A DNA stretch of 64,000 bases, taken from the NCBI GenBank assembly GCA_015063545.1, contig SVTX01000001.1, positions 1,842 through 65,841 on the forward strand, given 5' to 3'. Of the stretch, positions 22,096-64,000 are shown piece by piece. Each line of letters begins with the position of its first letter. The stretch's first letter is position 1. Position numbers and translations under genes: made by a program. Origin of the DNA: Oscillospiraceae bacterium (lineage in GTDB: Bacteria; Bacillota; Clostridia; Oscillospirales; CAG-272). The notes below the pieces were generated by a model that ran no database searches, had not been told where the DNA came from, and worked only from the letters and a program-made list of their open reading frames with translations.

Positions 22096-22123
22096 TTGAT
22101 ATAACAACAAAAGCTTGATAAAA

Positions 22124-22156
22124 AGGGCTTTTTCAGACAAAAGTCCTTTTTTATTT
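22124..22156 (+). terminator. rho-independent terminator at the end of the glycogen operon
   Basis: agggctttt tcagac aaaagtcct followed by tttttattt. Confidence 0.6.
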
Positions 22157-22266
22157 ATGCGTTGAATGCGTGAACGAGACATGTTCTTCATATAAATCGT
22201 TTTTTTGCATATAATGTTTTATGAAAGCAAAGAATAGTATCATCAAAGTTTTGGAGGTGTAGGATC

Positions 22267-23586
22267 GTGACAAAGCCACAGATCATAAAATGCAGTGCAA
22301 GAGAAATTTTGGATTCAAGAGGCAATCCCACAGTGGAAGCGACAGTCATGCTTTCGGATGGAAGCATAGGAGTGGCATCCGTGCCGTCGGGGGCTTCCAC
22401 GGGTATATATGAGGCGGTAGAAAAACGCGACGGAGACAAGTCAAGATATAACGGTAAAGGAGTGCTTTCCGCGGTAAACAGCATATGCAGAACCATATCG
22501 CCCGCCCTCATAGGTGTTTATGCGAGCGAACAAAATGAGGTCGATAGAATAATGTGCGAAATAGACGGCACAGAGAATAAGCAAAATCTTGGTGCAAATG
22601 CTATTTTGGCGGTATCTCTGGCAAATGCGCGTGCATGCGCTAACAGCTATCATATGCCGTTATTTCGCTTTATAGGTGGGATGGAGGCAAAAACGCTTCC
22701 AATACCCATGATGAATATTCTGAACGGCGGTGCGCATGCAAGCAACAATATAGAGATACAGGAATTTATGATAGTTCCTACGGCTGCGCCGTCTTTTTCT
22801 GATGCCATAAGAATGGGTAGTGAGATATATCATGAGCTTGGAGATATTCTCAAGAGGGAAAATCACTCTACGGCGGTAGGAGACGAGGGCGGATTTGCGC
22901 CCAATCTTGAATCTGACGAACAGGCAATAGAGTATATTTGCCGGGCGATAGACGCATGTGGCTATTCAGACAGCGTAAAGATAGCCTTGGATGCCGCATC
23001 ATCCGAATGGTATAGCGAGAAGGAAGACCGTTATAAGTTAAAAAAACGTGGAATGGAATATGACAGAGACGGATTGATAAACTTTTGGGAAAAGCTTTGC
23101 GACTCATATCCCATTATCTCAATAGAAGATGGATTGGATCAGCGTGATTTCTTCGGTTGGAGCCGTCTTACCGAAAAGATAGGGAACAGATGTATGCTGG
23201 TCGGAGACGATTTATTCGTTACAAATGTAAAGCGGCTCAAAGAGGGAATAGGTACCGGCGCCGCAAATGCCGTTCTTGTAAAGCCCAATCAAGTGGGAAC
23301 CTTGAGTGAAGTAATAGATGTGACCTCGACGGCATACTCCAAAGAATATCTTACCATCATGTCTCACCGTTCCGGTGAGACGGAGGATACGACAATAGCC
23401 GATCTTGCGGTGGGGCTTGGCGCGAAGTTTATAAAATCAGGAGCGCCCTGCCGAAGCGAGAGAGTGGCCAAGTACAACCGGCTTATAAGGATAGAGGCAT
23501 CTTTGGGTAAATCGGCAAAATACGGATTTAATTACGGAAGCATAAAACCCACCGTGAGAACGTTTTGCGGAGAGTGTATGGAATAA
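22267..23586 (+). CDS. eno: enolase
   Basis: GTG start with GGAGGTG RBS. AREILDSRGNPTVEA, SHRSGETED and KPNQVGT motifs. Confidence 0.93.
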   Translation: MTKPQIIKCSAREILDSRGNPTVEATVMLSDGSIGVASVPSGASTGIYEAVEKRDGDKSRYNGKGVLSAVNSICRTISPALIGVYASEQNEVDRIMCEIDGTENKQNLGANAILAVSLANARACANSYHMPLFRFIGGMEAKTLPIPMMNILNGGAHASNNIEIQEFMIVPTAAPSFSDAIRMGSEIYHELGDILKRENHSTAVGDEGGFAPNLESDEQAIEYICRAIDACGYSDSVKIALDAASSEWYSEKEDRYKLKKRGMEYDRDGLINFWEKLCDSYPIISIEDGLDQRDFFGWSRLTEKIGNRCMLVGDDLFVTNVKRLKEGIGTGAANAVLVKPNQVGTLSEVIDVTSTAYSKEYLTIMSHRSGETEDTTIADLAVGLGAKFIKSGAPCRSERVAKYNRLIRIEASLGKSAKYGFNYGSIKPTVRTFCGECME

Positions 23587-23800: not shown

Positions 23801-26800
23801 ATGAAAAAAATCCTCTCTGCATCGATAGTGGTGATTATGATAATTGCACTGGCTATCGGCGCTACATTTGCAGCAAATGCCGTAGAGGCAGACTATTCCT
23901 TGACGGGAATGGGCGCGGCTGTTACAAAGCCTATTACGGTAAACGGTACGGACACGGGAGTTACACACACACAGATATCCGTGCCCGCAAATTCCAAGTA
24001 TAACCCTTATACGTCAGACAGCGTTGTTAACGTAATAGAGATATCCCCATCTGACACGAATGCAACGATGGCGGTTCTCAACTGCGGTAATTACAACTGG
24101 AGCAAGACCACTATGGGTACTGCTGCCAATAAATATAACGCAACGCACGACGGCACGGTAATTGCTGCGGTAAACGGTGACCCGTGGCTCGTACACCATA
24201 CGGACTACGACGGAGACGGTGTTGCATCTACAGGTCCTTCCGTAAAGCACGGCTCGGTATCCAGAGGAATAGTTATTGTTGATGGCGAGCTTTACAACAC
24301 AAGACAATCCGCGGCAGAAAACTACCTTCCTGCCAAAACAAGCGGAAGTGGCGCAGAGTACGGCGGAACTCCGTCGGGAGGAATGGTCTTTGCTGTAAAA
24401 GCAGACGGAAGCTACATGATAGGTACTCCCAGCCTTAATGTTTCTATGAAAAACGCAACCACAGGTGTAACGCTTACAGCGCCCACCGGAATTAACAGAC
24501 TTCCCGCACCTAACGCTATAATGATCTACAATCACAGAGTTGGTACAGAGTCTATGGCATACACCGACGCGTATGAGATATATCTTAAAACAGACGATAG
24601 TGCGTTCGGAATAGGCAAGACTGTTTCCGGTACTGTTACGGCAATATTTGAGAGCAATAGCGAAGAACCCCGTCCCGCTATTGATGCAAATACCATTATT
24701 ATTTCCGCGAGAGGTAATAAGATAGAAGGTCTTCAGGGACAGTTCACCATCGGTGATCAGATAGATTTCGGAGTACTTGTAAGAAACGATTCTTACTTGT
24801 CCGCTCAGAAAAGCGAATGGAAGAACGTTACTCAGGCGATCGGCGGATTCTTCTCTCAAGTAGATAAGGGTAACATCACAGGTGAGAACCGAGACAGTGC
24901 ATATCCTTGTCCTGTAGTTGGACTTAAACAGGATGGCACAGTTGTTGTTATGAGCGTTACCTCGCAGGCAGATGGTCTGTATAAGGGTACGACGATGAGG
25001 AACGTTGCCTATATATGTCAGGAACTCGGCATGTATACCGCGCTTATGTTTGACGGCGGCGGATCCACGCAGATGATAACCTATGATGATGGCGCATACG
25101 TAAGACGCGCATCCAGCGCTGACGGAGCAAACAGTGTCCGTGGAGTTATAAACGGACTGGCAGTAGTGTATAAAGGCGCGAATATTGACAATGTTATAAA
25201 CAATGAATCGTCGGCTGCCGGTTTCTACGGTGAAATAACCGGAGCTACGACGGATACGTTTGCGGCAGTAGTAAATAACGTAAACGGAGTTGGTCCCGAC
25301 GGAACAGTGAACACTAACTTTGCTCAGACACTTGTTTCAAATACTTCTTTTGTTGCAAGTGCTCCCATGCCGATAGAAATTAAGGATACTACCGTAAGTA
25401 TCAACGGATGGTTTATATCCAACGGCGGTCAGAACGACGAAATTAAATTCTCCGTAGACGGCGGACAAACATGGGTAGGTACATGCACCAACATAAATTG
25501 GATGGACGGTACATCAGACCATGTAGCGGCTGCCAATGCACACGGAGTAGAGAATGCATCTGCAACCCACGCGGTGTTTACCGGAGCTACTGCTGATCTT
25601 TCTCTGTTTGAGGGAAGAACGGTAGATGTTACGTTTGGAAGAACCGCCCCTTGGGGTGATACGGTGGCATTTGCGACCATAACCGGCGTCAAGGTTCCCG
25701 GTGTCGCAAAGCCGGATGTGGTAATTACAGCGGAGCCCACAGGCTCTTACCGTTATTATGTAACCGTAAGCAGTATCAACGGTATAGCCACAAGCCTTAC
25801 GGGCTACAGAGACGCGACAAGCGGAGTGACCGAGAGACGTGTTCCTGCAATCACGACGGGCATTTCTGTAGATGAAAATAACTGTATTTTGATATCCGGT
25901 ATGGCACAGGTCAACGGAGGTCAGTATGCCTATTACTGGTCGATTGACGGTAATAATTGGTATGAATTTATGGGAGGAGAATACGGCTCTGCTACGTCTG
26001 ACTTTGCCGCGGAGGCAAGAGAAAGCATTGCTAAGGTAACCAGCACGGGCATAGAAGCAAACGGTGCATTTACCAACCTCAAGGTTGATCTTACATCTTA
26101 TGCGGGGGAAACCGTTGACATATATTTTGCGGTTACGTCAAAGAGTGCAAATACAAGTCCTTGTCACTTCTTGACAATCGAGGATGTAGCAGTTCCCGCA
26201 CCTCATACTTGCACTCCCGGAGCTGACGCAACTTGTACCACAGACCAGACCTGCACAGAGTGCGGAGAAATTATAACCCCCGCGCTCGGACACGATGAGA
26301 TAACTCACGAGGCAAAGGCGGCAACCTGTACAGAGGATGGCTGTAATGCATACGTAAGTTGCTCAAGATGTGATTACACTACTTATGAGGCGATACCCGC
26401 AACGGGCCACACCGAAGTAATCGATGCGGCAGTAGCTGCAACATGTACAGAAACAGGTCTTACAGAAGGTAAGCACTGTTCCGTATGTGAGAAGGTTCTC
26501 GTAGCTCAGACAATAGTCGATGCTCTTGGACATACAGCTGGTAATACAGTTGTAGAAAATAATGTAGAGCCTGATTGTACAAATACAGGTTCTTACGATA
26601 CAGTAGTTTACTGTACATTATGTAACGTTGAACTCTCTAGAGAAACAACAACAGTTGATGCACTCGGTCATACCGAAGTGATCGACGCAGCAGTAGCTCC
26701 CACATGTACAGAGACAGGTCTTACAGAAGGTAAGCACTGCTCCGTATGTAATGAGATTATCGTAGCACAGGAAACAGTAGCAGCTCTCGGTCATACCGAA

Positions 26801-27520
26801 GTTGTTGACGCAGCTAAGGCGCCCACATGTACAGAGACAGGTCTTACAGAAGGAAAGCACTGTTCAGTATGTGAAGAAGTTATCGTAGCGCAGAACGTAG
26901 TTGACGCTCTTGGTCATACAGAGGAAGAGATCCCTGCGGTAGAGGCTACTTGTACAGAGGTGGGATGGAACACATACGTAATGTGCACAGTATGTGATTA
27001 CACTACATATGAAGAGATTCCCGCGCTTGGACATGACACGGAAGTTATTGCGGCAATAGATGCAACGTGTACTCAAAGCGGAACTACCGCCGGCGAAAAA
27101 TGTAAGGTTTGCGGCGACGTTATTGTTCCTACAACAGAGATTTCTGCGACAGGACACACTGAAGAGAAGATACCTGCGATCGCAGCTACATGTACCGATA
27201 GTGGAGGTACAGAAGGGAAGAAGTGTTCTGTTTGTGGCGAAATAACAGTAGTTCAAACGGAGATCGCTCCTCTTGGACACAAATTTGACAGTGATACAGA
27301 TGAGGAATGTAATACTTGTGGATATAAGCGCGAGATAACCACAGAAGCTCCTACGGACGGTTCTGCAGAGACTCCCACATCCAATAATCAAAATGGCTCT
27401 GATAACGCACAGTCAACAGACGAAGGCAATGGCGGTTGCGGATCATCGGTCGGAATTGGACTTATTGGCCTTACAACTGCTATGGCAGCAGGATATGTAT
27501 TCTCTAAGAAGAGAAGATAA
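23801..27520 (+). CDS. 1239-aa surface protein: signal peptide, phosphodiester-glycosidase (NAGPA/DUF2233)-like domain, two beta-sandwich-like repeats, about 10 His/Cys3 repeats, and a GCGS-TM-KKRR tail
   Basis: AAGGAG RBS. Signal [35 protein letters not shown] and [10 protein letters not shown] are reminiscent of NAGPA-type domains. Repeats are of the form [42 protein letters not shown]-terminus is [29 protein letters not shown]. Confidence 0.8.
26200..27310 (+). repeat. in-frame tandem coding repeats (about 10 units of 117-135 bp) encoding His/Cys3 modules
   Basis: Units start at each GH(T/D). Three units (about 26400-26520, 26660-26780, 26780-26900) are near-identical at the DNA level. 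Confidence 0.8.
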
Positions 27521-27539: not shown

Positions 27540-27567
27540 AGCGGTGTGTTCTTTTGAACACACCGCT
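27540..27567 (+). terminator. hairpin after the 1239-aa gene
   Basis: agcggtgtgttc tttt gaacacaccgct followed by ttg. Confidence 0.5.
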
Positions 27568-27573
27568 TTGTAC

Positions 27574-27612
27574 AAAAAAGCGAGGACACCGAAGTGTCCT
27601 CGCAATTTTTTA
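27574..27612. terminator. bidirectional terminator between the convergent Cys-repeat genes
   Basis: aaaaaa gcgaggacac cgaa gtgtcctcgc aatttttta. Confidence 0.65.
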
Positions 27613-27640
27613 TTGTTTTATAAAGTTGACTAAGTTAAAA

Positions 27641-30600
27641 TCAGTCTTCCTTCTTCTTAAAGCATACTGCTCCTGCAAGTGTGATGCTTCCGAGAATTGC
27701 AAGTGCGCTGAATCCAACAACGGATCCACAACCCTTCTTTTCTTCCTTCTTGCCGTCGTCTGCAGGCTTGTCGTTTCCGGAATTGCCGGAATTATTGCTG
27801 TTGTTATTGTTGCTTTCTTCCTTAGTTTCGCCACATACTGTGCACTTGTTGTTTTCAAACTTATGACCTGTTGCGGGAGCAACCTCGCCGTTACATACTG
27901 TACATACCTGTGCTGTTGTACATGTTGCCTCTGCACCGGGTGTGTGCTCAAGAGCTGCTACAAGCTCTGCGTTACATACTGTACATGTCTGAGCTGCTGC
28001 ACATGTTGCCTCTTCACCGGGTGTATGGCCGAGAGCTGCTACGAGTTCTGCGTTACATACTGTACATGTCTGAGCTGTTGTACATGTTGCCTCTATACCT
28101 GCTGTGTGACCTGTTGCTGCTGCGAGTTCTGCGTTACATACTGTACATGTCTGTGCAGTTGTGCATGTTGCCGCTGCACCGGGCTTGTGACCGTAAGATT
28201 CCACAAGAACGGTCTCACATACTGTACATACCTGAGCTGTTGTACATGTTGGCGCTTCACCGGGTGTGTGACCCGTTGCGCCTGCAATCTCTGCATTACA
28301 TACTGTACATACCTGTGCTGTTGTGCATGTTGCCTCTTCGCCGGGTGTGTGACCCTTTGCTGCTTCTATAACAATTTCACATACTGTACATGTCTGAGCT
28401 GTTGTACATGTCGCTTCTGCACCGGGGGTATGAGGAAGCTTTTCAATAGCTTCTGTTGCAATTGTTGTTCCACAGTCGTTACATGTCTGTACCTTTCTAC
28501 CTGCAGCAGAACATGTGGGATCAACTGTCTGTGTCCATGTCGTTTCAGCGTGGTCACAACCGTATCCGCAAGCACATACCGCGCCGCTTGTGAGGTCGTG
28601 AGCTACCTTTTCTGTTGTTGCATCACAGTCTTCGCACTTCTGCCAGTGGCCTTCATCATCGTAATTGTATGCGACGCTCCAGTCGTGAGGAAGAATCTCT
28701 GTTACTGTCTGCTCCTTAACTACTTCGTTACATCTAGCACACTTAGAACCGTCCGAAAGACCTGTTTCGGTACATGTTGCAGCCTTGCCGGGAATAACTA
28801 TTTCGTCGTGTCCAAGCGCGTCAATTACTGTCTGCTCCTTAACTACTTCGTTACATACGGAGCAAGTGCTTCCATCGGAAAGACCTGTTTCGGTACATGT
28901 TGCGGGCTTTCCTGCAACGGATACCTCCGTGTGTCCCTTAGCCGCAACAATTACCTTGCCACATACTGTACATACCTGTGCTGTTGTACATGTTGCCTCT
29001 GCACCGGGTGTACAATCCTGTACGGGAATAACCTCGGGATTTTTGATGATCTTTTCACAGTCGAGACACTTAATGCCCTCCGTAGAACCGATACCCTTGC
29101 AAGAAGCGGGAACTTCGGGAATAGTTTCTGTGTTTTCATGTGCGCAACCGGGGGCAACGTTCTCTACATAGGCTGCAGCGAAATCTTCAGCTGCGATATC
29201 GTCCTTGAAGAATCCTGCGTAGCAGAAATCAAAGTGGTTCTGACCGTCGTTTACGAGAATGAGGTTATTGAATACGAGCTGAACACTGTTGATTCTTCCG
29301 TTCCAGTCGGGAGTGAAATCGGGATCATCCATATAGAAGATGAAGAGCTTGTAATGATGTCCGTCGTCACCAATCCATGACGCTGTCATAGATTCATTGC
29401 TATAAAAGTGTTCATCGTCAGCTCCGAGGATGCTTCCTGCACAGTAGTACATGCTGAGTGTTTCTTCTTCGTAGCATTCATTTTCACCGGGAGCAAATAC
29501 GCAGCTGCAATAGTCTCTGAGGAGGACTGCTACGTACGGGAAGTCCGCTGCCTCGTAAGAAATTGCGTTTTTGGGTAATATTGTTATACTTACTGCATTG
29601 GTTGTTTTAGGATAAATCGAGAACGTGTTATCACTGTTCAAGTTGTAATCAAGATTGAGAGTGGAGGGGAGCTTGCCGGCTTTTTTGTAATCATCGTTTG
29701 CATTAGCACCGTCGAAGTAAAGTGCGGGCTGATCGTCTTCAATTGTGGAGGAATCGATCATTTCACCGATAGGCTCAGGAGTACCTGTAGCCTCACCTGC
29801 ATCTGTACCTGTGGGTGTTTCGCCATTGAATTCAATGATGGTGCAACGAGTTGTGCAGTCACTCTTGGAACCGAGAACGGAGAAGCCGATGTATGCCATA
29901 CCGTCAGCGAAACGGTACTTGAAGTACTGGTCAACAACCGCCTGAGTTACAGGAACTCCGCAAATATTCATTCCGTACAGGTTGGTGTTTGCATCATAAG
30001 TAATCTCCATAGTCAAAATGAAATCACCGTTTTCATCCTGCTCGGGAGGATTGTTTGCAAGATCGTTACCGAAGTCGATAAGATTGGACACCATGGGGGC
30101 AGATGCGCTACCAGGCTGAAGAGCTCCGGGAGTGGAGGTGTTGTAGTAAGATTGGTCAGAGATAAATGACTGGCTCTGTGTCCAGGAGATCTTACCTGTA
30201 CGGCTTACTGTGCCACGCAAAAGTCCAAATACACCCTGGCCGAATGTTCCTGATGCATTTCCCTGAGCTACAACGGGGCTGTCCCAAACAGAGAAGCTGA
30301 GCCACCAGTCTCCACCGTAAGCAAAATCGTCCATTCTGACTTTCATGGTTATGCCTTCCTGGAGGTTATGCTTTTCCTTGGACATTATGTTAAAGCGCTG
30401 TCCTGCGGGGGCCTTGAATTCTGCTGAAGCAAAAAATCCGTCCTCGTTGTATCCGTATCCGGGAACGATAGCGTTTTCAGGGACTATGGAATAGTCGAGA
30501 TTTCCGTCCTCATCCCTGTACATTCCTGCGTCGGAATAAACTTTCCAGTCGCCGCCGTTTTCTGTTGATGTGCTTATTACTTCATCGTCAGCAGCTGCGG

Positions 30601-30673
30601 GAGTAACTGCGATGGCAATAAGTGCTGAAAGGATCATTACAGCAACAAGTGCTGTACAAAGAAATCTTTTCAT
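27641..30673 (-). CDS. 1010-aa surface protein: signal peptide, lectin-like domain, unknown domain, mixed His/Cys repeats including 7 tandem 29-aa units, and a GCGS-TM-KKKED tail
   Basis: Start moved to ATG 30673 (AAGGAG RBS; MKRFLCTALVAVMILSALIAIAVTPAAA), because the predicted -10 lies at 30733-30738. MAYIGFSVLGS is legume-lectin-like. C-terminus is KKGCGSVVGFSALAILGSITLAGAVCFKKKED. Confidence 0.8.
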   Translation of the reverse strand: MKRFLCTALVAVMILSALIAIAVTPAAADDEVISTSTENGGDWKVYSDAGMYRDEDGNLDYSIVPENAIVPGYGYNEDGFFASAEFKAPAGQRFNIMSKEKHNLQEGITMKVRMDDFAYGGDWWLSFSVWDSPVVAQGNASGTFGQGVFGLLRGTVSRTGKISWTQSQSFISDQSYYNTSTPGALQPGSASAPMVSNLIDFGNDLANNPPEQDENGDFILTMEITYDANTNLYGMNICGVPVTQAVVDQYFKYRFADGMAYIGFSVLGSKSDCTTRCTIIEFNGETPTGTDAGEATGTPEPIGEMIDSSTIEDDQPALYFDGANANDDYKKAGKLPSTLNLDYNLNSDNTFSIYPKTTNAVSITILPKNAISYEAADFPYVAVLLRDYCSCVFAPGENECYEEETLSMYYCAGSILGADDEHFYSNESMTASWIGDDGHHYKLFIFYMDDPDFTPDWNGRINSVQLVFNNLILVNDGQNHFDFCYAGFFKDDIAAEDFAAAYVENVAPGCAHENTETIPEVPASCKGIGSTEGIKCLDCEKIIKNPEVIPVQDCTPGAEATCTTAQVCTVCGKVIVAAKGHTEVSVAGKPATCTETGLSDGSTCSVCNEVVKEQTVIDALGHDEIVIPGKAATCTETGLSDGSKCARCNEVVKEQTVTEILPHDWSVAYNYDDEGHWQKCEDCDATTEKVAHDLTSGAVCACGYGCDHAETTWTQTVDPTCSAAGRKVQTCNDCGTTIATEAIEKLPHTPGAEATCTTAQTCTVCEIVIEAAKGHTPGEEATCTTAQVCTVCNAEIAGATGHTPGEAPTCTTAQVCTVCETVLVESYGHKPGAAATCTTAQTCTVCNAELAAATGHTAGIEATCTTAQTCTVCNAELVAALGHTPGEEATCAAAQTCTVCNAELVAALEHTPGAEATCTTAQVCTVCNGEVAPATGHKFENNKCTVCGETKEESNNNNSNNSGNSGNDKPADDGKKEEKKGCGSVVGFSALAILGSITLAGAVCFKKKED
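27863..28471 (-). repeat. seven tandem 87-bp in-frame repeats encoding GHTPG-x-EATCTTAQ-x-CTVC-x8
   Basis: Protein reads HTPGAEATCTTAQTCTVCEIVIEAAKG / HTPGEEATCTTAQVCTVCNAEIAGATG / ... seven times. The periodicity is obvious in the DNA (gttacatactgtacat recurs). Confidence 0.85.
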
Positions 30674-30732
30674 GTTTTTCTCCTTATAAATAGTTTTTTT
30701 GGCGCGTTGTGCGTTCGGCGCCAATCATGTAT

Positions 30733-34590: not shown

Positions 34591-34608
34591 TTTTGCAGTC
34601 TCCTTTCT

Positions 34609-57927: not shown

Positions 57928-60873
57928 ATGAAGAAAAGAATTGTAAGATCATTCTTCGTATTCATGATAGCTGTCGCGGCGATGTGCTGTATATTCTTCT
58001 CGCAGTCAACGTATGCAAAATACTCGGCGAGCAGTAATGCCACACAGACAGCACAGTATACATATCAAGCCGTAGGATGTACAGGCGGTACTGCTACCTG
58101 TAGTCAAAAAGCTACGTGTACGATATGCGGCAATCAATACGGAGATTATAATCACACAGGTGCTAAGGATTGGAGATATATCGAATCCGGACACTGGAAA
58201 ATATGGGAATGTTGCGGTGCTATCGCGACCGACATTTCTGAACACGTTTATGTGGAAGGCGTATGCGAATGCGGCAGAGCCAACCATACTCACCAAAAGG
58301 TTTTAGTACCCGCCAAGGATCCGACTTGTACCGAAAGCGGAAACGTGACATATTACGCTTGTACGTGTGACAAATTATGGACAGAGGACGGAATAACCGA
58401 GACTCTCATGGAAGTGGTAACTATTCCTGCAACAGGACACAAGTGGTATCTTGCTACGTGTGCAGCGCCCAAGACTTGTCAGAATTGCGGCGAGACAGAA
58501 GGCGTTGCTCTTGAACACACGCTTGAAACTCTTGCGGCAGTAGAGCCAACTTGTAACAGCACAGGTCTCACCGCCGGTGAGAGATGTACTGTATGCGGTA
58601 CTGTTACGGTAGCGCAGCAGGAAATAGGAATGCTTGCGCATACACCTCAGACCATTCCCGCAGTTTCTGCAACGTGTAGCAACGACGGCGCGAGCGAAGG
58701 CTCGGTGTGTTCAACTTGCGGAACTATAATTACGGCTCCCGAGACGATACTTGCTCTCGGACACACAAAACAGAAAATTTCGGCAATAGCCGCAACGTGT
58801 ACGACGACCGGACTTACGGAGGGCGAGAGATGTACTGTTTGCGGAGTTATAACAAAAGAACAAGAGATAGTTGATAAACTCGGACACATTGAGGTTTCAA
58901 CTCCCGCGCTTGCAGCAACGTGCACTCAGGCAGGACATACCGCCGGTGTAAGATGTAGCAGAGCAGGTTGCGGAGAGGTGCTTGTACCTCAGACGCCGAT
59001 AGAAGCTATCGGACACACTGTGGTAGCTATGCCAGAGGTTTCTGCATCCTGTCTTGAAGAGGGATATTCGGGCGGAACACAGTGTAGCGTATGCTACGAA
59101 ATAATTTCGGCACAGACGATCATACCCGCGCTCGGACACACGATGCTTAAAGATAGCATAATTATTCCAGCAGTTGCTCCTACGTGTGCTGAAACAGGTC
59201 TTACGCAGGGCATCAAGTGCGGCAGATGCGGCACGTTGACGACAGCTCAGGCAGTAGTTCCCGCAAACGGACATACGGAAGTGACAGATACAGGCTTTGC
59301 GGCAACGTGTATAAAGAACGGTCTGACTAACGGCGCTCACTGTACGGTTTGCGGTGAGATAACAGTGCCTCAGACTATCATACCTTATTCCGGACATAAT
59401 GAAACAACTCTTGCGGCGAAGGATGCAACCTGTACGAGTACAGGTCTTACAGAAGGTAAGCAGTGTACAATATGCGGAGTTATTACTGTAGCTCAGCAGA
59501 CTATTGGTAAGAAGGATCACACCGTAGTGGCCGATGCGGCAGTAGCGGCAACCTGTACGTCGGCAGGTAAGACGGCAGGATCGCATTGTTCTGTATGTGA
59601 TACGGTTATTGTTGCGCAGACAGTAATTCCCGCAACAGGACACAGCTGGAAGGCTGCGACCTGTACGGCGGCTCAAACATGTAAGAATTGTGGAGCAACT
59701 CAAGGTGCAGCTCTTGGACATACAGCGGCAGCTAATTATTCCTCAGACGCAAGTAACCACTGGAAAGAGTGTACTGTTTGCGGTTATGATATTGGCAAGA
59801 CAGCACACACGGCATCCGGTACCTGGTCCACGGATAACTCTAACCACTGGAAGGAGTGTACTGCCTGCGGATATGATACTAACAAGGGTGCCCACACAGA
59901 ATCGGGTTGGAAGACTGATGGAACAAACCACTGGAAGATTTGTAATACGTGTAGTAAGATAACCACGGCAAAGACAGCTCATACACCCAATAGTACGTGG
60001 TCCACGGACAATTCTAACCACTGGAAGGATTGCTCTGTTTGCGGATACGATACAAACAAGGGAGCGCATAACCAGAATACCAATGGTGGTACAGCAAGCG
60101 TACATAAGAAGTGTAGTGTCTGTGGCAAGACCACCAGCACGTCCCACTCGTACTCATCAAGTGTTCAAACGGCGGCGACCTGTACGGCAGTCGGAACAAC
60201 CAAATATAGTTGCGCTTGTGGATATAGTTATACATCAAATGATATCCCGGCAACAGGACATTTGACGACGGTAATAGACAACTGGACGGTTTACGGCAAC
60301 AACTGTTCCGGTGCGGCAACCTGTTCCAGATGCAATATTACGATTACTCCCACGGTATTCTTCGATCCTTTGTGGGTTGGTGATACCGCTAAAAATACTT
60401 ATCTGAACGGTTTCCCTCTGGCAAGAGCTTACGACGTTACAGCTGCCGGAGTTGACGCTACTCACGGCCAGGCATGGGCGTTGCTTCAGGCAAATGTTAC
60501 CAACGGCGCATTTTTGCACTTGAATAAGAACAATGTGCTTATGGGTAAATATATAGTCCTTCACTACGGTTCTTCTAACGTACCTGTCGGTTCACAAATA
60601 AACGTGGTAGTAAATAACGGCGGCTCAGGACAGGTTAACTGGAGAATGGCTAACCCGGGTACCGGCTTTACGTCATCGTTGTTCTCTCTACCAAACAATG
60701 CGGGTGATAACCCGTTCTATATGAATATCAATGGTTCGATTATCTATATCAGAGGTATTGCAACGTTTAATGATATCAATCAGGCGCGCGCATATCAGGC
60801 TCTCCTGACGGGCATTCAGTGCAAGGACGGAAGAAAGACAACCAACAGCGGAGATGCAACCTGTGTTGGATAA
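57928..60873 (+). CDS. 981-aa exported protein: class-B signal, about 12 His/Cys3 repeats, 4-5 HW-C2H2-like repeats, and a C-terminal beta-sandwich-like domain
   Basis: ATG lies 1 nt after the upstream stop. N-terminus is MKKRIVRSFFVFMIAVAAMCCIFFSQSTYAKYSAS. Repeats are of the form GHTKQKISAIAATCTTTGLTEGERCTVCGVITKEQEIVDKL and NSNHWKECTACGYDTNKGAHT. No C-terminal TM helix. Confidence 0.8.
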   Translation: MKKRIVRSFFVFMIAVAAMCCIFFSQSTYAKYSASSNATQTAQYTYQAVGCTGGTATCSQKATCTICGNQYGDYNHTGAKDWRYIESGHWKIWECCGAIATDISEHVYVEGVCECGRANHTHQKVLVPAKDPTCTESGNVTYYACTCDKLWTEDGITETLMEVVTIPATGHKWYLATCAAPKTCQNCGETEGVALEHTLETLAAVEPTCNSTGLTAGERCTVCGTVTVAQQEIGMLAHTPQTIPAVSATCSNDGASEGSVCSTCGTIITAPETILALGHTKQKISAIAATCTTTGLTEGERCTVCGVITKEQEIVDKLGHIEVSTPALAATCTQAGHTAGVRCSRAGCGEVLVPQTPIEAIGHTVVAMPEVSASCLEEGYSGGTQCSVCYEIISAQTIIPALGHTMLKDSIIIPAVAPTCAETGLTQGIKCGRCGTLTTAQAVVPANGHTEVTDTGFAATCIKNGLTNGAHCTVCGEITVPQTIIPYSGHNETTLAAKDATCTSTGLTEGKQCTICGVITVAQQTIGKKDHTVVADAAVAATCTSAGKTAGSHCSVCDTVIVAQTVIPATGHSWKAATCTAAQTCKNCGATQGAALGHTAAANYSSDASNHWKECTVCGYDIGKTAHTASGTWSTDNSNHWKECTACGYDTNKGAHTESGWKTDGTNHWKICNTCSKITTAKTAHTPNSTWSTDNSNHWKDCSVCGYDTNKGAHNQNTNGGTASVHKKCSVCGKTTSTSHSYSSSVQTAATCTAVGTTKYSCACGYSYTSNDIPATGHLTTVIDNWTVYGNNCSGAATCSRCNITITPTVFFDPLWVGDTAKNTYLNGFPLARAYDVTAAGVDATHGQAWALLQANVTNGAFLHLNKNNVLMGKYIVLHYGSSNVPVGSQINVVVNNGGSGQVNWRMANPGTGFTSSLFSLPNNAGDNPFYMNINGSIIYIRGIATFNDINQARAYQALLTGIQCKDGRKTTNSGDATCVG
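58285..59720 (+). repeat. in-frame tandem coding repeats (about 120-130 bp units) encoding His/Cys3 modules
   Basis: Recurring ...gcaacgtgt/acctgtac...ggtcttac...tgtac.gt.tgcgg... blocks. A 23-nt stretch at 59440-59462 is identical to 26453-26475. Confidence 0.75.
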
Positions 60874-61021: not shown

Positions 61022-61606
61022 ATGGCAAAACAGCATTGGAAAGGCGGCACTTTGCTCGCCCCCGCGCCACCTGTTATGGTGAGCTGCGGAGATATGGAAA
61101 AATCAAATATAATAACTATTGCTTGGACGGGAATAACCAATACGATTCCGCCGAAAACCTATATTTCGGTGCGTCCAAACCGTTATTCATACAATATTAT
61201 CAAGGAAAGCGGAGAATTTGTGATAAATCTCACCCCCGCATCACTTGTAAAACAAGCCGACTATTGCGGTATTTATACAGGCGCGAAGGTGGACAAATTC
61301 AAAAAGTGCAATTTTCACAAGGAAGCGGCGCAAAACGTGTCCTGTCCTGTAATAGCGGAATGTCCCATTTCGCTTGAATGCAAGGTGACGGACATTATTC
61401 CGCTTGGCACGCACGATATGTTTTTAGCGGATATTGTCGGTGTTAACGTGGACGAGAGCTTGCTGGATAAAAACGGCAAGCTGTGTATAGATAAGGCGTC
61501 TCTTTGCGCTTATGCGCACGGGGATTATTATGAGCTTGGTAAAAAGATTGGCAAATTCGGTTTTTCTACCGATAAGAAAAAGAAGAAAGGTAGGGCTAAG
61601 TCATGA
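61022..61606 (+). CDS. flavin reductase-like (FMN-binding split-barrel) protein
   Basis: Start at ATG 61022. PAPPVMVSCGD...NIITIAWTG...YISVRP.RYS...I...GEFVINL is typical of the flavin reductase/flavoredoxin family. Confidence 0.7.
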   Translation: MAKQHWKGGTLLAPAPPVMVSCGDMEKSNIITIAWTGITNTIPPKTYISVRPNRYSYNIIKESGEFVINLTPASLVKQADYCGIYTGAKVDKFKKCNFHKEAAQNVSCPVIAECPISLECKVTDIIPLGTHDMFLADIVGVNVDESLLDKNGKLCIDKASLCAYAHGDYYELGKKIGKFGFSTDKKKKKGRAKS

Positions 61607-64000
61607 GAATAATGAAATCAAAATTAATCAATATACTTAAAATTTTGGTGATCATCACAGTGCTGTCCCTGTGCTTGCCTGCGGTGCTGACCGCATGCGG
61701 AAAAGCAGATAGTACAGACGGCGAGCCTACCGTCGGCGTAACGGTTTCGCCTACGGAGGAAAATACCGAAACGCCAACACAGAAACCCACCGATAATTTG
61801 ACGGAAAAACCTACAGAAAAACCCACGGAGAAGCCCTCAGAGAAGCCTTCAGAGAAACCCTCGGAGAAACCCTCAGAGCAGCCCTCGGAGAAGCCTTCAG
61901 AGAAACCTTCGGAGCAGCCCTCGGAGAAGCCCTCGGAGAAACCGTCAGAGAAGCCCTCGGAGAAACCCTCAGAGCAGCCCTCGGAGAACCCGGATGATCC
62001 TCATGTTTGTGAGGGCAAAGAATGGGTTGTGATCAAGGAAGCAACTTGTAGCAGTGAGGGTGAGAAGACGCTTATTTGTGAGTGCGGCGAGATCGTAGAA
62101 ACTCAGAAAATTGATGCTCTCGGTCATGAATGGCTTGAGGTGTATTCGTACAATCAATCGCAACATTGGAGGTCTTGTAACGAATGCGGTGAAACCGAGA
62201 CTTCATCTGAGCACGTATATGACGGAAGTATTTGCAACATATGTGGATACGGATGCGCGCATGCATCGGTTGAATGGATCACTGTAAAACAACCTACGTG
62301 TTTTGAGCCCGGAAGAAAAGCGGCGGTATGCCTAATTTGTAATGTAGCTGTTCGTACGGATAATATTCCAATGTCAGAGCATACTCCCGGAGATCCTGCG
62401 ACCTGCACCGATGCTCAGACATGTACTGTTTGCGGATATGAAATATCTCCAAAGATCAATCATATTATTCAGATAATAGAAAGTGTTGATCCCACTTGCA
62501 CTGAAGAGGGTTATACACAGGGTGAGATCTGTACTCAATGCGGAGAGCTTGTCACACAGCCTCAGCCCATATCCGCGCTCGGACACACCGAAGAGGAATT
62601 AGACGGAGTAGACGCGACATGTACGCAGAACGGAATGACAAGTGGCATCAGATGTTCCGTATGCGGATATATAATAGTACAACAGCAGATCATTCCGAAA
62701 ATTGATCATAATGAAAAGATCCTTGCGGCAGTAGAACCCACGTGTACTGAGCCCGGACTTACGCAGGGAAAGATTTGTGAAGTGTGTAATGAGATCTTAG
62801 TTGAGCAAACAGAAACCTCTTCGCTTGGACACAACGTTGTAAATGTTGATGCTGTTCCGCCAACATGCACGGAGACGGGACTTACAGAGTCGAAAAAATG
62901 TGACAGGTGCGGAGCGATAGTTGTTTACCCATTCAGTATACCTGCAACGGGACATTCATACGATAACGATATGGATTCCGACTGTAACTCGTGCGGCGAG
63001 ATAAGACAAGTGATATTTGAGCCGGGCGAGAATTACGACGGGGTAGTTATATCAAAGGTGTTTGGCACAGGCGGAAAAGTCGATGCGGCTATGGGTAACA
63101 GCTTTATAGAGCTTTACAATACATCCGAAAAAACCGCAAAGCTCAACGGAACGGCTTTGTATTACGGAGAAGGTGATTCATTTACCGCGATAGATCTCAA
63201 CGGTTATACGATAGCGCCCAAGTCTTACATGCTCATAAAGTGCGCGTACGTCAGCGGATACGATACGTCTTTTGAGGTCATGCGAATTGATGAGTTTGAT
63301 ATGGAGTGTGGCATAACAATAAATAACAAGGAATTTGAGCTTGTTTATGCCGAAAAAGGCTCCGAAATTACACCCAAAGGTGATTTTGGAAACTCAGCCG
63401 GAGTAATATCTTATCTTGTGGCGTGCGAGATCGAAAACGTGGACGTGTATTGGGTACACAACCTCTCCAAAAACCGCATGATAGTAAGAACAGAGCTTAC
63501 AAAGGAATCGGGATACCATCGTATAAATCTTTCAAAGTCGGGCACTTCGGATCTTATAAAGGTAACTCCCCAAACCTCAAACGGCAATGTTAATACACAC
63601 GTTGTATCAAAATTCAACGAGGTTATCTTCTCACAAGAGGGCGGAATATATGATGCAAATATGCTTCGCATAAAGCTTCAAGCGCCTGAAGGATGGGATA
63701 TATTCTATACGCTGGACGGAAGCGATCCCAGAGTGAACGGAGCAGCATATTTAAGTGGTATAAGAATATACTCAACCAACAGTGTTAGCTGGGGAGCCAC
63801 GATAAATCTTGGAATTTCCCGCGATCCCGCGGCAAAACCGTATGCAAACGAAATGTTCGGCGGAACTGTAATAAAGGCATATGCAACCAACGGAGTGGAA
63901 AGTACGGCAGTATATACTCAAACGTATTTTAACAGTGAGACGCTTGAAGGACTTGACGCAAAGATAATTTCAATGTCTGTATCAGCAGAGGAATTTTTGG
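61603..64000 (+). CDS. large lipoprotein (partial, runs off the window): lipobox, (S/T)E(K/Q)P linker, His/Cys repeats, lamin-tail-like domain, CHB_HEX_C-like domain
   Basis: Not in the ORF track. I translated 61603-64000 by hand and found no stop. N-terminus is MRIMKSKLINILKILVIITVLSLCLPAVLTACGK (lipobox LTAC). GVVISKVFGTGG...SFIELYNTS...LNGYTI is lamin-tail-domain-like, and DIFYTLDGSDP is as seen in CotH-associated domains. ATGA overlap with the flavin reductase stop. Confidence 0.8.
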   Translation, partial: MRIMKSKLINILKILVIITVLSLCLPAVLTACGKADSTDGEPTVGVTVSPTEENTETPTQKPTDNLTEKPTEKPTEKPSEKPSEKPSEKPSEQPSEKPSEKPSEQPSEKPSEKPSEKPSEKPSEQPSENPDDPHVCEGKEWVVIKEATCSSEGEKTLICECGEIVETQKIDALGHEWLEVYSYNQSQHWRSCNECGETETSSEHVYDGSICNICGYGCAHASVEWITVKQPTCFEPGRKAAVCLICNVAVRTDNIPMSEHTPGDPATCTDAQTCTVCGYEISPKINHIIQIIESVDPTCTEEGYTQGEICTQCGELVTQPQPISALGHTEEELDGVDATCTQNGMTSGIRCSVCGYIIVQQQIIPKIDHNEKILAAVEPTCTEPGLTQGKICEVCNEILVEQTETSSLGHNVVNVDAVPPTCTETGLTESKKCDRCGAIVVYPFSIPATGHSYDNDMDSDCNSCGEIRQVIFEPGENYDGVVISKVFGTGGKVDAAMGNSFIELYNTSEKTAKLNGTALYYGEGDSFTAIDLNGYTIAPKSYMLIKCAYVSGYDTSFEVMRIDEFDMECGITINNKEFELVYAEKGSEITPKGDFGNSAGVISYLVACEIENVDVYWVHNLSKNRMIVRTELTKESGYHRINLSKSGTSDLIKVTPQTSNGNVNTHVVSKFNEVIFSQEGGIYDANMLRIKLQAPEGWDIFYTLDGSDPRVNGAAYLSGIRIYSTNSVSWGATINLGISRDPAAKPYANEMFGGTVIKAYATNGVESTAVYTQTYFNSETLEGLDAKIISMSVSAEEFL
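61801..61992 (+). repeat. 16 tandem 12-bp repeats encoding (T/S)E(K/Q)P
   Basis: acggaaaaacct acagaaaaaccc acggagaagccc tcagagaagcct ... tcggagaacccg. Confidence 0.9.

What the first reader, a model, noticed from the sequence alone, without database searches (positions are those of the whole stretch)
26200..27310. Definition of the repeat module: G-H-x(10-13)-C-T-x2-G-x(5-6)-C-x2-C, a possible extracellular Cys3His (zinc-ribbon-like) bead
- Each unit of about 41 aa has exactly one His and three Cys at fixed spacing.
- Example: [41 protein letters not shown].
- A short variant (29 aa; HTPGAEATCTTAQTCTVC) compresses the first spacing to C-x5-C-x2-C.
- An odd number of Cys per unit argues against simple intra-repeat disulfide pairs.
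- A four-ligand H/C3 set is what a structural Zn site would need.
- All carriers are predicted to be extracellular, where zinc-ribbon beads are not a described stalk material as far as I know.
- I cannot name a Pfam family for this module from memory.
Basis: partly seen in the sequence, partly recalled or inferred. Interest (0 to 1): 0.6.

Follow-up and report, generated by a model that had tools for sequence, protein, structure and literature searches.

The report
Metal-stapled stalk repeat of gut Clostridia
The repeat is real: it is a very common, uncatalogued building block of cell-surface proteins in gut Clostridia, it most likely forms a stiff rod pinned together by zinc, and it was noticed before only in one bacterial antibody-cutting enzyme in 2025.

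Summary
The repeat is real. Window 26195-27331 encodes ten units of protein A, and three more secreted proteins in the window carry arrays. The motif occurs 34 times against 0.44 in shuffles.

- **Conservation:** across 3,685 unique units from 274 proteins, the His and three Cys are 97.7-100% conserved.
- **Catalogue status:** Pfam, NCBIfam and PDB hold no matching family. A unit profile finds 33,600 protein clusters.
- **Known relative:** the repeat is homologous to the ZBD1/ZBD2 (CTD2/CTD4) domains of the Thomasclavelia ramosa IgA protease (E 1.4e-8 through a homologue; 5.9e-4 directly from the window). Two 2025 papers proposed these, from AlphaFold models and SAXS, as a new zinc-linked rod ("periscope") fold. 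Zinc binding is unproven.
- **Fold:** AlphaFold2 gives a confident all-beta rod (pLDDT 92.8 and 96.4).
the unit is probably not a self-contained zinc-ribbon bead. Last units lose the single Cys (52/68 vs 26/3699). First units gain a Cys/His beside the His (60/103 vs 69/3200). Internal losses are compensated in the next unit. This indicates each Cys3His site joins two successive repeats.
- **Role:** a stalk between membrane anchor and distal domains.

Verdict: partly supported; new member of a recently noted, uncharacterised kind.

The parts
26195..27331 (+). Repeat array of protein A (aa 799-1177): a first short unit with an extra Cys (PAPH-T-C), eight units of 36-45 aa, and a terminal cap [16 protein letters not shown] that lacks the lone Cys. 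This is the finding's region.
26405..26521 (+). It contains two His.
26585..27046 (+). The 3.5-unit fragment modelled with AlphaFold2: pLDDT 92.8, pTM 0.60, all-beta, no helices.
23801..27520 (+). Carrier A, in order: signal peptide; NAGPA phosphodiester glycosidase domain (24746-25165); two unassigned regions; the repeat array; a Ser/Thr/Asn-rich linker; and a G-C-G-S + hydrophobic helix + KKRR tail (27419-27517).
27821..29149 (-). Repeat array of protein B (aa 526-968): a first unit with extra Cys (G-C-A-H), long units, one His-Trp unit, seven 27-aa short units, and the cap GHKFENNKCTVCG.
27893..28438 (-). Short-variant sub-array of protein B: seven 27-aa units GH-x7-C-x5-C-x2-C. At the DNA level it is an 81-bp tandem repeat of 6.7 copies with 78% matches.
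27641..30724 (-). Carrier B, in order: signal peptide (likely start MKRFLC...); an unassigned N-terminal region of about 500 aa; the repeat array; and a G-C-G-S + hydrophobic helix + KKKED tail (27644-27748).
58069..60339 (+). Repeat array of protein C (aa 48-804): ten canonical units detected by the unit profile, plus short, long-connector and His-Trp variants.
59716..60123 (+). His-Trp (His2Cys2) sub-array of protein C: [AG]-H-T-x(9-12)-H-W-x2-C-x2-C-G. It is directly similar to ZBD1 and ZBD2 of the T. ramosa IgA protease (E 5.9e-4).
61996..63006 (+). Repeat array of protein D (aa 132-468): a first unit with extra Cys (P-H-V-C), His-Trp, short and canonical units, and the cap GHSYDNDMDSDCNSCG.
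61603..64000 (+). Carrier D, which runs off the window end. In order: lipoprotein signal (LTAC); PT-rich linker; the repeat array; then LTD, CHB_HEX_C_1 and Fn3_assoc domains.

Best explanation
**What it is.** The unit is one module of an extracellular rod-forming ('periscope' or stalk) repeat of Bacillota. It is homologous to the putative zinc-binding domains ZBD1/ZBD2 (= CTD2/CTD4) of the Thomasclavelia ramosa IgA protease.

**Fold (inferred).** Each module of about 41 aa (GH - 11 residues - C - 10 residues - CxxC - 14 residues) most likely forms a flat, three-stranded up-down-up beta sheet without a real hydrophobic core. Modules stack end to end.

**Metal site (inferred).** At each junction a tetrahedral metal site, most likely structural Zn(II) with Cys3His ligands, ties three elements together:
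- the top turn of the lower module (its lone Cys);
- the through-going chain (the His of GH);
- the bottom turn of the upper module (its CxxC).

The four ligands therefore come from two successive repeats, not from one contiguous H...C...CxxC stretch.

**Role (inferred).** The array acts as a stiff spacer that holds enzymatic or binding domains away from the membrane anchor.

**Shown here:** the repeat, its conservation, the ligand bookkeeping at array ends, the homology, and a confident all-beta model. **Inferred:** the metal, its identity, the exact ligand set and the rigidity.
For: **Ligand conservation.** In 3,685 unique units from 274 proteins, His is 99.8%, the lone Cys 97.7%, and the CxxC Cys 100% and 99.9% conserved.

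**Cys/His exchange, which is typical of metal ligands:**
- a C-x-N-D-x2-H knuckle replaces CxxC in some homologues;
- His-Trp units carry His in place of the lone Cys;
- the lone Cys is replaced by His in 6 units.

**Inter-repeat site:**
- Terminal units lack the lone Cys in 52/68 cases (48 proteins) against 26/3699 elsewhere (odds ratio 459, p 6e-83).
- 59 arrays in 46 proteins end in a cap H-x(4-13)-CxxC with no lone Cys.
- First units carry an extra Cys/His within -4..+3 of the His in 60/103 cases against 69/3200 (p 3e-63).
- Internal loss of the lone Cys is accompanied by an extra His or Cys (eight His, one Cys) beside the next unit's His in 9/16 cases against 33/2412 (p 6e-13; 4 independent proteins).
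- Three of the four window arrays obey both end rules.

**Three-strand ladder:**
- AlphaFold2 gives pLDDT 92.8 for 3.5 units and 96.4 for one unit, all-beta.
- The strand blocks 31-34 | 49-52 | 58-60 and 37 | 45-46 | 64-65 match in length across the three segments.
- In the 45-aa unit, the Cys-to-CxxC segment and the following segment are continuous 8-9-residue strands joined by the CxxC turn. This puts the lone Cys far from its own CxxC.
- The three segment lengths shrink together in the short variant (11/10/14 to 7/5/9).
- The Cys-to-CxxC length correlates with the following connector (rho 0.88), not the preceding one (rho 0.24).

**Homology.** P0042, a homologue found with the window repeat at E 9e-108, matches PDB chain 9qa6_A (IgA protease) at E 1.4e-8. 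The His-Trp units of window protein C match it at E 5.9e-4.

**Literature on that protein:**
- SAXS shows an extended rod with G5-like single sheets (PMC12415215).

**Stalk position.** In all four window carriers the array lies between the membrane-proximal anchor and the distal domains. In P0002 it lies between a lipoprotein signal and a secreted nuclease.
Against: - No metal has been measured for this fold in any protein. The IgA-protease sites are also only predicted.
- I could not read model coordinates, so the ligand geometry and the inter-repeat assignment rest on sequence statistics and the secondary-structure string, not on distances.
- Canonical units that precede His-Trp units keep their lone Cys (18/18). 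That would leave five candidate ligands at such junctions.
- PMC12237041 describes the ZBD1 sites as His2Cys2. That leaves the lone Cys of ZBD1 subdomain I unassigned.
- 42% of first units show no nearby extra ligand, and 16 of 68 terminal units keep the lone Cys.
- Foldseek similarity to SasG/Aap G5 rods is weak (E 0.079 and above 1).
- The unit set was selected with a profile that rewards the conserved residues. This inflates the conservation figures, though not the end effects.
Confidence: 0.62

Rival explanations
1. Self-contained Cys3His bead. The contiguous H...C...CxxC of one repeat binds one zinc in a compact zinc-ribbon-like mini-domain, and beads are joined by linkers.
For: - Each repeat contains exactly the four candidate ligands at fixed spacing.
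- Weak partial matches to zinc-knuckle and zinc-ribbon Pfam models appear on the CxxC region.
- A single 49-aa unit is predicted with pLDDT 96.4.
- PMC12237041 notes a distant resemblance of ZBD1 subdomain I to the TFIIS zinc ribbon.
Against: - It does not explain why the lone Cys is lost specifically in last units (52/68 vs 26/3699) while His and CxxC stay.
- It does not explain why arrays end in H+CxxC caps, or why first units gain an extra Cys/His next to the His.
- It does not explain why loss of the lone Cys is compensated in the next unit.
- In the 45-aa unit the model shows a continuous 8-residue strand between the lone Cys and its own CxxC.
- There is only one knuckle per unit. No zinc-ribbon model passes its threshold and there is no Foldseek match.
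Confidence: 0.12
2. Shifted register. The site is formed by the lone Cys and CxxC of repeat n plus the His of repeat n+1, with the two intervening segments acting as hairpins that return to the same site.
For: - It explains the coupling of the lone Cys with the next unit's His.
- It explains why the His of His-Trp units, 3 residues before the CxxC, could replace the lone Cys of the same unit.
- The strand-break-strand pattern of the model could be read as hairpins.
Against: - Arrays would then end at a bare His. Instead, about 95% of units with a lone Cys are followed by His plus a knuckle; only 4 are followed by a His with no further Cys nearby.
- Conserved caps keep a CxxC that would be orphaned.
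- The extra ligand next to the first His would have no partner.
- Hairpin arms would be unequal (2 vs 4 residues), whereas the ladder reading gives matched blocks.
- A short unit that follows a long one keeps a short His-to-Cys segment. That fits the ladder, not this geometry.
Confidence: 0.1
3. No metal. The Cys form disulfides (a CxxC disulfide and/or inter-repeat disulfides) or stay as free thiols, and the His has another role.
For: - The proteins are extracellular, where disulfides are usual in many organisms.
- The IgA protease behaves heterogeneously without DTT (PMC12237041, legend of S4 Fig), so its thiols are oxidation-prone.
Against: - There is an odd number of Cys per unit.
- The His is as invariant as the Cys (99.8%).
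- Cys-to-His and His-to-Cys replacements occur at ligand positions.
- The hosts are strict anaerobes of gut or rumen samples (names).
- No disulfides were seen in experimental or predicted IgA-protease structures (PMC12237041).
Confidence: 0.07
4. The metal sites are functional rather than purely structural. The arrays might sense, store or scavenge zinc or another thiophilic metal, or act as redox- or metal-switchable stalks whose stiffness reports the environment.
For: - Up to 70 sites per protein and 33,600 protein clusters amount to a large extracellular metal-binding capacity.
- The PNAS authors suggest the function may be regulated by environmental zinc (PMC12415215).
- A second conserved His sits directly before the CxxC in 53% of units and has no assigned role.
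Against: - Fully coordinated Cys/His sites are typical of inert structural zinc.
- The constant position between anchor and distal domain fits a passive spacer.
- There is no linkage to metal transporters in the window; the neighbours identified by Pfam are enolase and alpha-amylase, and I read the adjacent large ORFs as AddA/AddB-like from their translations only.
Confidence: 0.09

Closest known systems
ZBD1/ZBD2 (= CTD2/CTD4) of the Thomasclavelia ramosa IgA protease (UniProt Q9AES2; PDB chain 9qa6_A; PMC12237041, PMC12415215)
   Same: - Sequence homology: E 1.4e-8 via P0042 and E 5.9e-4 directly from window protein C.
- Shared motifs: GH...C-T-x2-G-N-x-A-Y-Y-x-C-x2-C-x-K-x-F and GHT...N-H-W-x-E-C.
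- Both are extracellular, all-beta and rod-shaped, with Cys/His sites described at the junctions of three-stranded sheets.
- Both sit between a catalytic domain and the cell anchor.
   Different: - The protease has only 3 + 2 non-identical subdomains, mostly His2Cys2 (His-Trp type).
- The window proteins have tandem arrays of at least 10 units, dominated by the 41-aa Cys3His form and a 27-aa short form.
- The papers did not report a family, a repeat consensus or the end rules.
- The metal is unproven in both.
G5-E repeats of SasG / Aap (Staphylococcus; Pfam G5 PF07501)
   Same: Both are elongated rods built of single three-stranded sheets without a hydrophobic core, used as surface stalks. SasG is the best, though weak, Foldseek match of the 3.5-unit model (3tiq_B, E 0.079). 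Aap/SasG entries recur for the single unit at E above 1. The PNAS authors make the same comparison.
   Different: There is no sequence similarity and no G5 Pfam match. G5 has no Cys. Aap binds zinc between protomers through His/Asp/Glu for dimerisation, not within the chain.
Zinc ribbon / zinc knuckle domains (for example the TFIIS C-terminal domain; Pfam zinc-ribbon models)
   Same: A C-x2-C-G knuckle sits at a beta-hairpin turn and a tetrahedral Cys/His site is proposed. Piles of weak partial Pfam matches fall on the knuckle (zf-Vps39_C, Auto_anti-p27, Zn_ribbon_Nudix).
   Different: There is one knuckle per unit, not two. The remaining ligands are a lone His and a lone Cys far apart in sequence and probably from different repeats. 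The window proteins match no zinc-ribbon model at all; in homologues only summed partial matches to the knuckle appear. The setting is extracellular and tandem.
Periscope proteins / fibrillar-adhesin stalk repeats (Rib, SHIRT, Big and others; Whelan 2022, cited in PMC12415215)
   Same: Tandem, variable-number repeats form a rod between the cell anchor and the functional head.
   Different: Those stalk domains are Ig-like or other sandwich folds stabilised by hydrophobic cores, isopeptide bonds or calcium. None is known to be held together by intrachain Cys/His metal sites.

Membership tests
T. ramosa IgA-protease ZBD / 'metal-associated periscope domain' (CTD2/CTD4) | Significant sequence similarity to ZBD1/ZBD2 | tested here: met
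   P0042 (found with the window repeat at E 9e-108) matches 9qa6_A residues 853-913 at E 1.4e-8. The window protein C His-Trp array matches 9qa6_A 903-965 and 1071-1131 at E 5.9e-4. The canonical-unit profile alone is only borderline (E 0.045).
T. ramosa IgA-protease ZBD / 'metal-associated periscope domain' (CTD2/CTD4) | Three-stranded up-and-down beta sheets placed end to end as an extended rod | tested here: inconclusive
T. ramosa IgA-protease ZBD / 'metal-associated periscope domain' (CTD2/CTD4) | Four Cys/His ligands converging at the junction between subdomains | tested here: met
   Sequence bookkeeping supports this. Terminal units lose the lone Cys, first units gain a Cys/His, caps exist, and internal losses are compensated in the next unit. 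Geometry itself was not measured.
T. ramosa IgA-protease ZBD / 'metal-associated periscope domain' (CTD2/CTD4) | Zinc actually bound | not testable with these tools
   Zinc binding is also unproven for the reference protein (PMC12237041: 'pending experimental validation').
Classical zinc ribbon | Two C-x2-C/H knuckles on two beta hairpins within one domain | tested here: not met
   There is one C-x2-C per unit. The other ligands are a lone His and a lone Cys 11 and 10 residues from their neighbours.
Classical zinc ribbon | Match to a zinc-ribbon profile above its curated threshold, or a structural match | tested here: not met
   The window proteins give no zinc-ribbon Pfam or NCBIfam match at E up to 1-10. 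In homologues, summed partial matches to the knuckle alone sometimes exceed a whole-protein cut-off (for example zf-Vps39_C, Auto_anti-p27, A24_N_bact), with no full-length domain match. Foldseek of the single unit against PDB gives a best E of 2.9.
G5 domain (SasG/Aap) | Match to Pfam G5 and the G5 sequence signature | tested here: not met
   There is no G5 match in any window carrier. Only weak Foldseek similarity was found (E 0.079).
EGF / laminin-type EGF (PF24973, listed for many homologues) | Six to eight Cys in a disulfide pattern and a match above threshold | tested here: not met
   Units have three Cys. The window proteins give no match, and a single unit scores 15.5 bits against a cut-off of 27. 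In homologues the score accumulates from many partial matches.

The most novel reading that the evidence does not exclude
Every metal site is shared between two successive repeats, so the whole array would be one cooperative, metal-dependent ladder. Its length and stiffness, and hence the reach of tens of thousands of gut Clostridia surface enzymes and adhesins, would switch with zinc availability or oxidation, for example under host zinc withholding or oxygen exposure. That would be a new principle for building and regulating bacterial surface stalks.
Probability: 0.2. Interest if true: 0.8.

Novelty: new member of a known kind. Interest (0 to 1): 0.6.

Why it matters
- **Scale.** This is one of the most abundant uncatalogued repeats of gut and rumen Clostridia. 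A unit profile finds 33,600 clusters at 50% identity, with up to 70 copies in proteins of up to 7,211 aa.
- **Carriers.** It holds glycosidases, nucleases, cohesin/dockerin, SLH and leucine-rich-repeat proteins on the cell surface.
- **Structural principle.** If the sites bind zinc as inferred, it would be an extracellular rod held together by intrachain Cys/His metal staples rather than hydrophobic cores, isopeptide bonds or calcium.
- **Practical gains.** A profile for it would annotate large stretches of 'hypothetical' surface proteins, give domain boundaries for structural work, and supply a short, confidently modelled fragment for the experimental test that two 2025 papers on the IgA protease left open.

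Tried and rejected
- **Pfam and NCBIfam** on all four carriers, on isolated units and on homologues gave no dedicated family. They returned only summed weak matches to zinc-knuckle, EGF and Kazal models, which I judge spurious.
- **PDB by sequence** with the array alone gave nothing. The canonical-unit profile gave only borderline matches, including CTCF zinc fingers and Kazal inhibitors. I rejected these as knuckle or Cys-spacing coincidences.
- **Foldseek against PDB** with the 3.5-unit model and the single-unit model gave nothing significant.
The scan with protein A found only four loci, related through the repeat region (the best also just upstream of it), and not the source genome.
- **Full-text search** for consensus peptides found no paper. 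Two keyword searches found nothing on this repeat; the first keyword search had already listed the T. ramosa IgA protease preprint, but I recognised its relevance only after the PDB profile match.
- **Relaxation of the lone Cys before His-Trp units** could not be tested properly: 18/18 keep the Cys and the sample is too small.
- **Enrichment of the second His (before the CxxC) in units lacking the lone Cys** was checked by eye only on about 10 examples. No enrichment was seen.
- **Model coordinates** are not exposed, so ligand distances could not be measured.
Full report
**1. What is there**

ORF 23801-27520 (+) encodes a 1239-aa protein, here called A. Its parts, in order:
- a signal peptide;
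- a NAGPA phosphodiester-glycosidase domain (aa 316-455);
- a repeat array at aa 799-1177 (window 26195-27331);
- a low-complexity linker;
- a hydrophobic, positively charged C-terminal tail.

Splitting the protein at every C-x2-C gives ten successive units: one short first unit, eight of 36-45 aa, and a short cap. Three more ORFs carry the same repeat:
- B: 27641-30724 (-);
- C: 57928-60873 (+);
- D: 61603 to the window end (+).

A pattern for the motif matches 34 times in the six-frame translation, always in these four frames. Shuffled DNA gives 0.44 on average, and residue-shuffled carrier proteins give at most 0.15 each.
- The short variant has a 27-aa period (81-bp DNA repeat, 6.7 copies), not 29.
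- The example begins ATGH, not ALGH.

**2. Conservation and size of the family**

A search with the array found more than 7,600 proteins at E below 1e-5, which was the candidate cap. They come from Clostridia metagenome bins and are named hypothetical, SLH, leucine-rich-repeat or fibronectin-type-III proteins. They co-occur with dockerin, cohesin, SLH, LRR_5 and Flg_new domains.

A 49-column unit profile run against 1.84 billion representative proteins found 33,600 proteins at E up to 1e-3 and 21,938 at up to 1e-10. Individual proteins hold up to 70 copies and reach 7,211 aa.

The 41-residue period dominates (489 spacings). The consensus is [41 protein letters not shown]. In 3,685 unique units from 274 proteins, conservation is as follows:

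| Position | Conservation |
|---|---|
| His | 99.8% |
| Lone Cys | 97.7% |
| First Cys of C-x2-C | 100% |
| Second Cys of C-x2-C | 99.9% |
| Gly 4 residues after the lone Cys | 99.9% |

These units were selected with a profile that rewards the same residues, so the figures are somewhat inflated.

**3. Is it catalogued?**

- Pfam and NCBIfam give no family for the repeat in any carrier.
- On homologues, Pfam shows only piles of weak partial matches to zinc-knuckle, EGF or Kazal models.
- A PDB sequence search with the array is empty.
- No paper in the library holds the consensus peptides.

**4. A known relative**

The unit profile touched PDB chain 9qa6_A, 'IgA protease', at E 0.045. Two stronger links followed:
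- P0042, a homologue whose arrays mix canonical units with a long-connector variant, matches that chain at E 1.4e-8. The aligned stretch is THNLTLVAAKAATCTTAGNSAYYTCDGCDKWF...PGHT.
- The His-Trp units of window protein C match it directly at E 5.9e-4. GHTAAANYSSDASNHWKECTVCGYD...AHT aligns with GHTAGTEWKSDDTNHWHECTVAGCGVI...AHT.

This protein is the Thomasclavelia ramosa IgA protease. Three papers bear on it:
- **EMBO J 2025 (PMC12402451)** solved only residues 323-878.

The kind of domain has therefore been noticed, in one protein and from predictions. Neither its metal nor its family has been established.

**5. Structure prediction here**

- A 3.5-unit fragment (window 26585-27046), with 61 aligned homologous fragments, gave pLDDT 92.8 and pTM 0.60, all-beta.
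- A single 49-aa unit gave pLDDT 96.4.
- Foldseek against PDB found nothing significant. The best match for the rod is the SasG G5-E-G5 module (E 0.079). The single unit gives only E above 2, with Aap/SasG and eukaryotic zinc-ribbon ribosomal proteins scattered in the list.
- Coordinates are not exposed, so I could not measure ligand distances.

**6. Which residues form one site?**

I compared three models:

| Model | Ligands of one site |
|---|---|
| Y | Lone Cys and C-x2-C of unit n plus the His of unit n+1 |
| X | Lone Cys of unit n-1 plus the His and C-x2-C of unit n |

Evidence bearing on the choice:
- **(a) Terminal units.** Units with no further knuckle within 70 aa lack the lone Cys in 52/68 cases (48 proteins), against 26/3699 for other units (odds ratio 459, p 6e-83).
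- **(b) Caps.** 59 arrays in 46 proteins end with H-x(4-13)-C-x2-C and no lone Cys. Proteins A, B and D of the window end this way: [45 protein letters not shown].
- **(c) First units.** Units with no knuckle within 70 aa upstream carry an extra Cys or His within -4..+3 of the His in 60/103 cases, against 69/3200 (p 3e-63). A, B and D begin P-H-T-C, C-A-H and P-H-V-C.
- **(d) Compensation.** When an internal unit has lost the lone Cys, the next unit has an extra His or Cys (eight His, one Cys) beside its own His in 9/16 cases, against 33/2412 (p 6e-13; four independent proteins). An example is EPTETED...GH-D-HT.
- **(e) What follows the lone Cys.** About 95% of units with a lone Cys are followed by a His and then a knuckle (3,525 of 3,707). 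Most of the rest are a long-connector variant in which the next His lies further downstream, or a C-x-N-D-x2-H knuckle. Only 4 are followed by a His with no further Cys nearby.

Points (a) and (d) contradict Z. Points (b), (c) and (e) contradict Y. Under X, every site along an array has exactly four ligands.

**7. Geometry consistent with X**

- In the model's secondary-structure string, the three segments of a unit show matched strand blocks: 31-34 | 49-52 | 58-60 and 37 | 45-46 | 64-65. This is what an up-down-up three-stranded ladder with a central break would give. The segments are His to Cys, Cys to C-x2-C, and C-x2-C to the next His.
- In the 45-aa unit type, the second and third segments are continuous 8- and 9-residue strands joined by the C-x2-C turn. 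The lone Cys therefore cannot reach its own C-x2-C.
- The three segments shorten together in the 27-aa variant, from 11/10/14 to 7/5/9.
- The length of the second segment correlates with the following connector (rho 0.88) and much less with the preceding one (rho 0.24).
- The picture matches the published description of ZBD1: three-stranded up-and-down sheets with sites at the interfaces.

**8. Caveats**

- Canonical units that precede His-Trp units keep the lone Cys (18/18).
- PMC12237041 counts the ZBD1 sites as His2Cys2, which leaves one Cys unassigned.
- 42% of first units have no obvious nearby substitute ligand, and 16/68 terminal units keep the Cys.
- All geometric statements are inference from the secondary-structure string and sequence statistics.

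**9. Metal or disulfide?**

Evidence for a metal:
- a His as invariant as the Cys;
- an odd Cys count per unit;
- Cys/His exchanges at ligand positions: a C-x-N-D-x2-H knuckle, His-Trp units, and the lone Cys replaced by His;
- strictly anaerobic hosts;
- no disulfides in the IgA protease (PMC12237041).

Zinc is the most likely metal for a Cys3His structural site, from general knowledge of zinc sites. Nothing here measures it.

**10. Function**

In A and B the order is distal domains, then array, then C-terminal membrane tail. In D it is lipoprotein anchor, PT linker, array, then LTD, CHB_HEX_C_1 and Fn3_assoc domains. In C it is signal sequence, array, then a C-terminal domain. In P0002 the array lies between a lipoprotein signal and a secreted nuclease.

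The array always sits between the anchor and the working domain. This is the position of a stalk, as proposed for the IgA protease. At about 35 A per unit (from 110 A for three subdomains; PMC12237041), protein A's array would span roughly 30 nm. That figure is an inference.

**11. Verdict**

A Cys3His metal module of extracellular proteins with no catalogued family is right. 'Zinc-ribbon bead' and 'not described' are not.
- It is a new member, and the canonical tandem form, of a kind that was flagged in 2025 in a single protein and remains experimentally uncharacterised.
- The end rules and compensation pattern found here give a specific, testable model of inter-repeat metal staples.

Noticed in passing
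window 27419-27517 (+) and 27644-27748 (-): Proteins A and B both end in G-C-G-S, a hydrophobic helix and a basic tail (KKRR / KKKED). The tails resemble an LPXTG-type anchor without the LPXTG motif. TIGR01167 scores 15.2 bits against a cut-off of 15.9 and matches only the helix and charged part. This may be an unrecognised sorting or lipid-attachment signal with an invariant Cys.
   Followed up: partly
window 27554-29380 (+): A 608-aa, extremely Cys-rich ORF lies on the strand opposite protein B's repeat array. I read it as a mirror artefact of the repeats, not a gene. Similar shadow ORFs lie opposite A's array (26618-26860 and 26864-27391, -).
   Followed up: no
window 59716-60123 (+), also B aa 680-700 and D aa 180-195: A His-Trp variant of the unit, [AG]-H-T-x(9-12)-H-W-x2-C-x2-C-G, gives a His2Cys2 ligand set. 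It has no lone Cys, and a His sits 3 residues before the knuckle. This is the form that dominates in the T. ramosa IgA protease.
   Followed up: partly
all arrays; consensus position directly before the C-x2-C: A second His immediately before the first knuckle Cys (K-H-C-S-V-C) occurs in 53% of 3,685 units and 76% of close homologues. Its role is unknown. By eye on about 10 examples, it is not enriched in units that lack the lone Cys.
   Followed up: partly
homologues P0003, P0126, P0141, P0149 and others; window C aa 336-348, D aa 155-165: Knuckle variants occur. C-x-N-D-x2-H-T replaces the second Cys with His on a longer loop. C-x4-C appears in window C (CSRAGC) and in the IgA protease (CTVAGC). 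C-x-C appears in window D (CEC) and window C (CTC).
   Followed up: partly
window C aa 121-175 (about 58288-58452); P0042; IgA protease ZBD1 subdomain I: A long-connector variant, C-T-x2-G-N-x-[AT]-Y-[YW]-x-C-x2-C-x-K-x-[FYW]-x-D-x2-G, is followed by 20-25 residues before the next His. In P0042 it triggers C2H2 zinc-finger Pfam models above their thresholds (zf-met 59 bits). I judge this spurious.
   Followed up: partly
window 27889-28433: The seven short units of protein B form an 81-bp DNA tandem repeat (6.7 copies, 78% matches). The long units of A are 123-bp repeats at 76-80% matches. The arrays therefore grow by unit duplication and then diverge.
   Followed up: partly
window 24746-25165 (+), 62000-64000 (+): The distal domains are sugar-related. 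Protein A has a NAGPA phosphodiester glycosidase domain. Protein D has a PT-rich linker and, downstream of the array, LTD (below Pfam's cut-off), CHB_HEX_C_1 and Fn3_assoc matches. The large N-terminal region of B and the C-terminal domain of C match no Pfam family.
   Followed up: partly
window 18926-23586 and 30832-37887: The neighbours are housekeeping genes: alpha-amylase family (18926-20866) and enolase (22267-23586) by Pfam. Two large ORFs (30832-34590 and 34609-37887, -) read like AddA/AddB helicase-nuclease subunits from their sequence alone. No metal transporter or dedicated maturation gene is evident next to the carriers.
   Followed up: partly
whole window: The same contig region occurs in JGI metagenome 3300031555 (Ga0318466_10029918, 30.7 kb). 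The species-representative genome scan did not find the source genome. The nearest carriers are Acutalibacteraceae bins and a goat-cecum Clostridia bin (35-59% identity over the repeat).
   Followed up: partly
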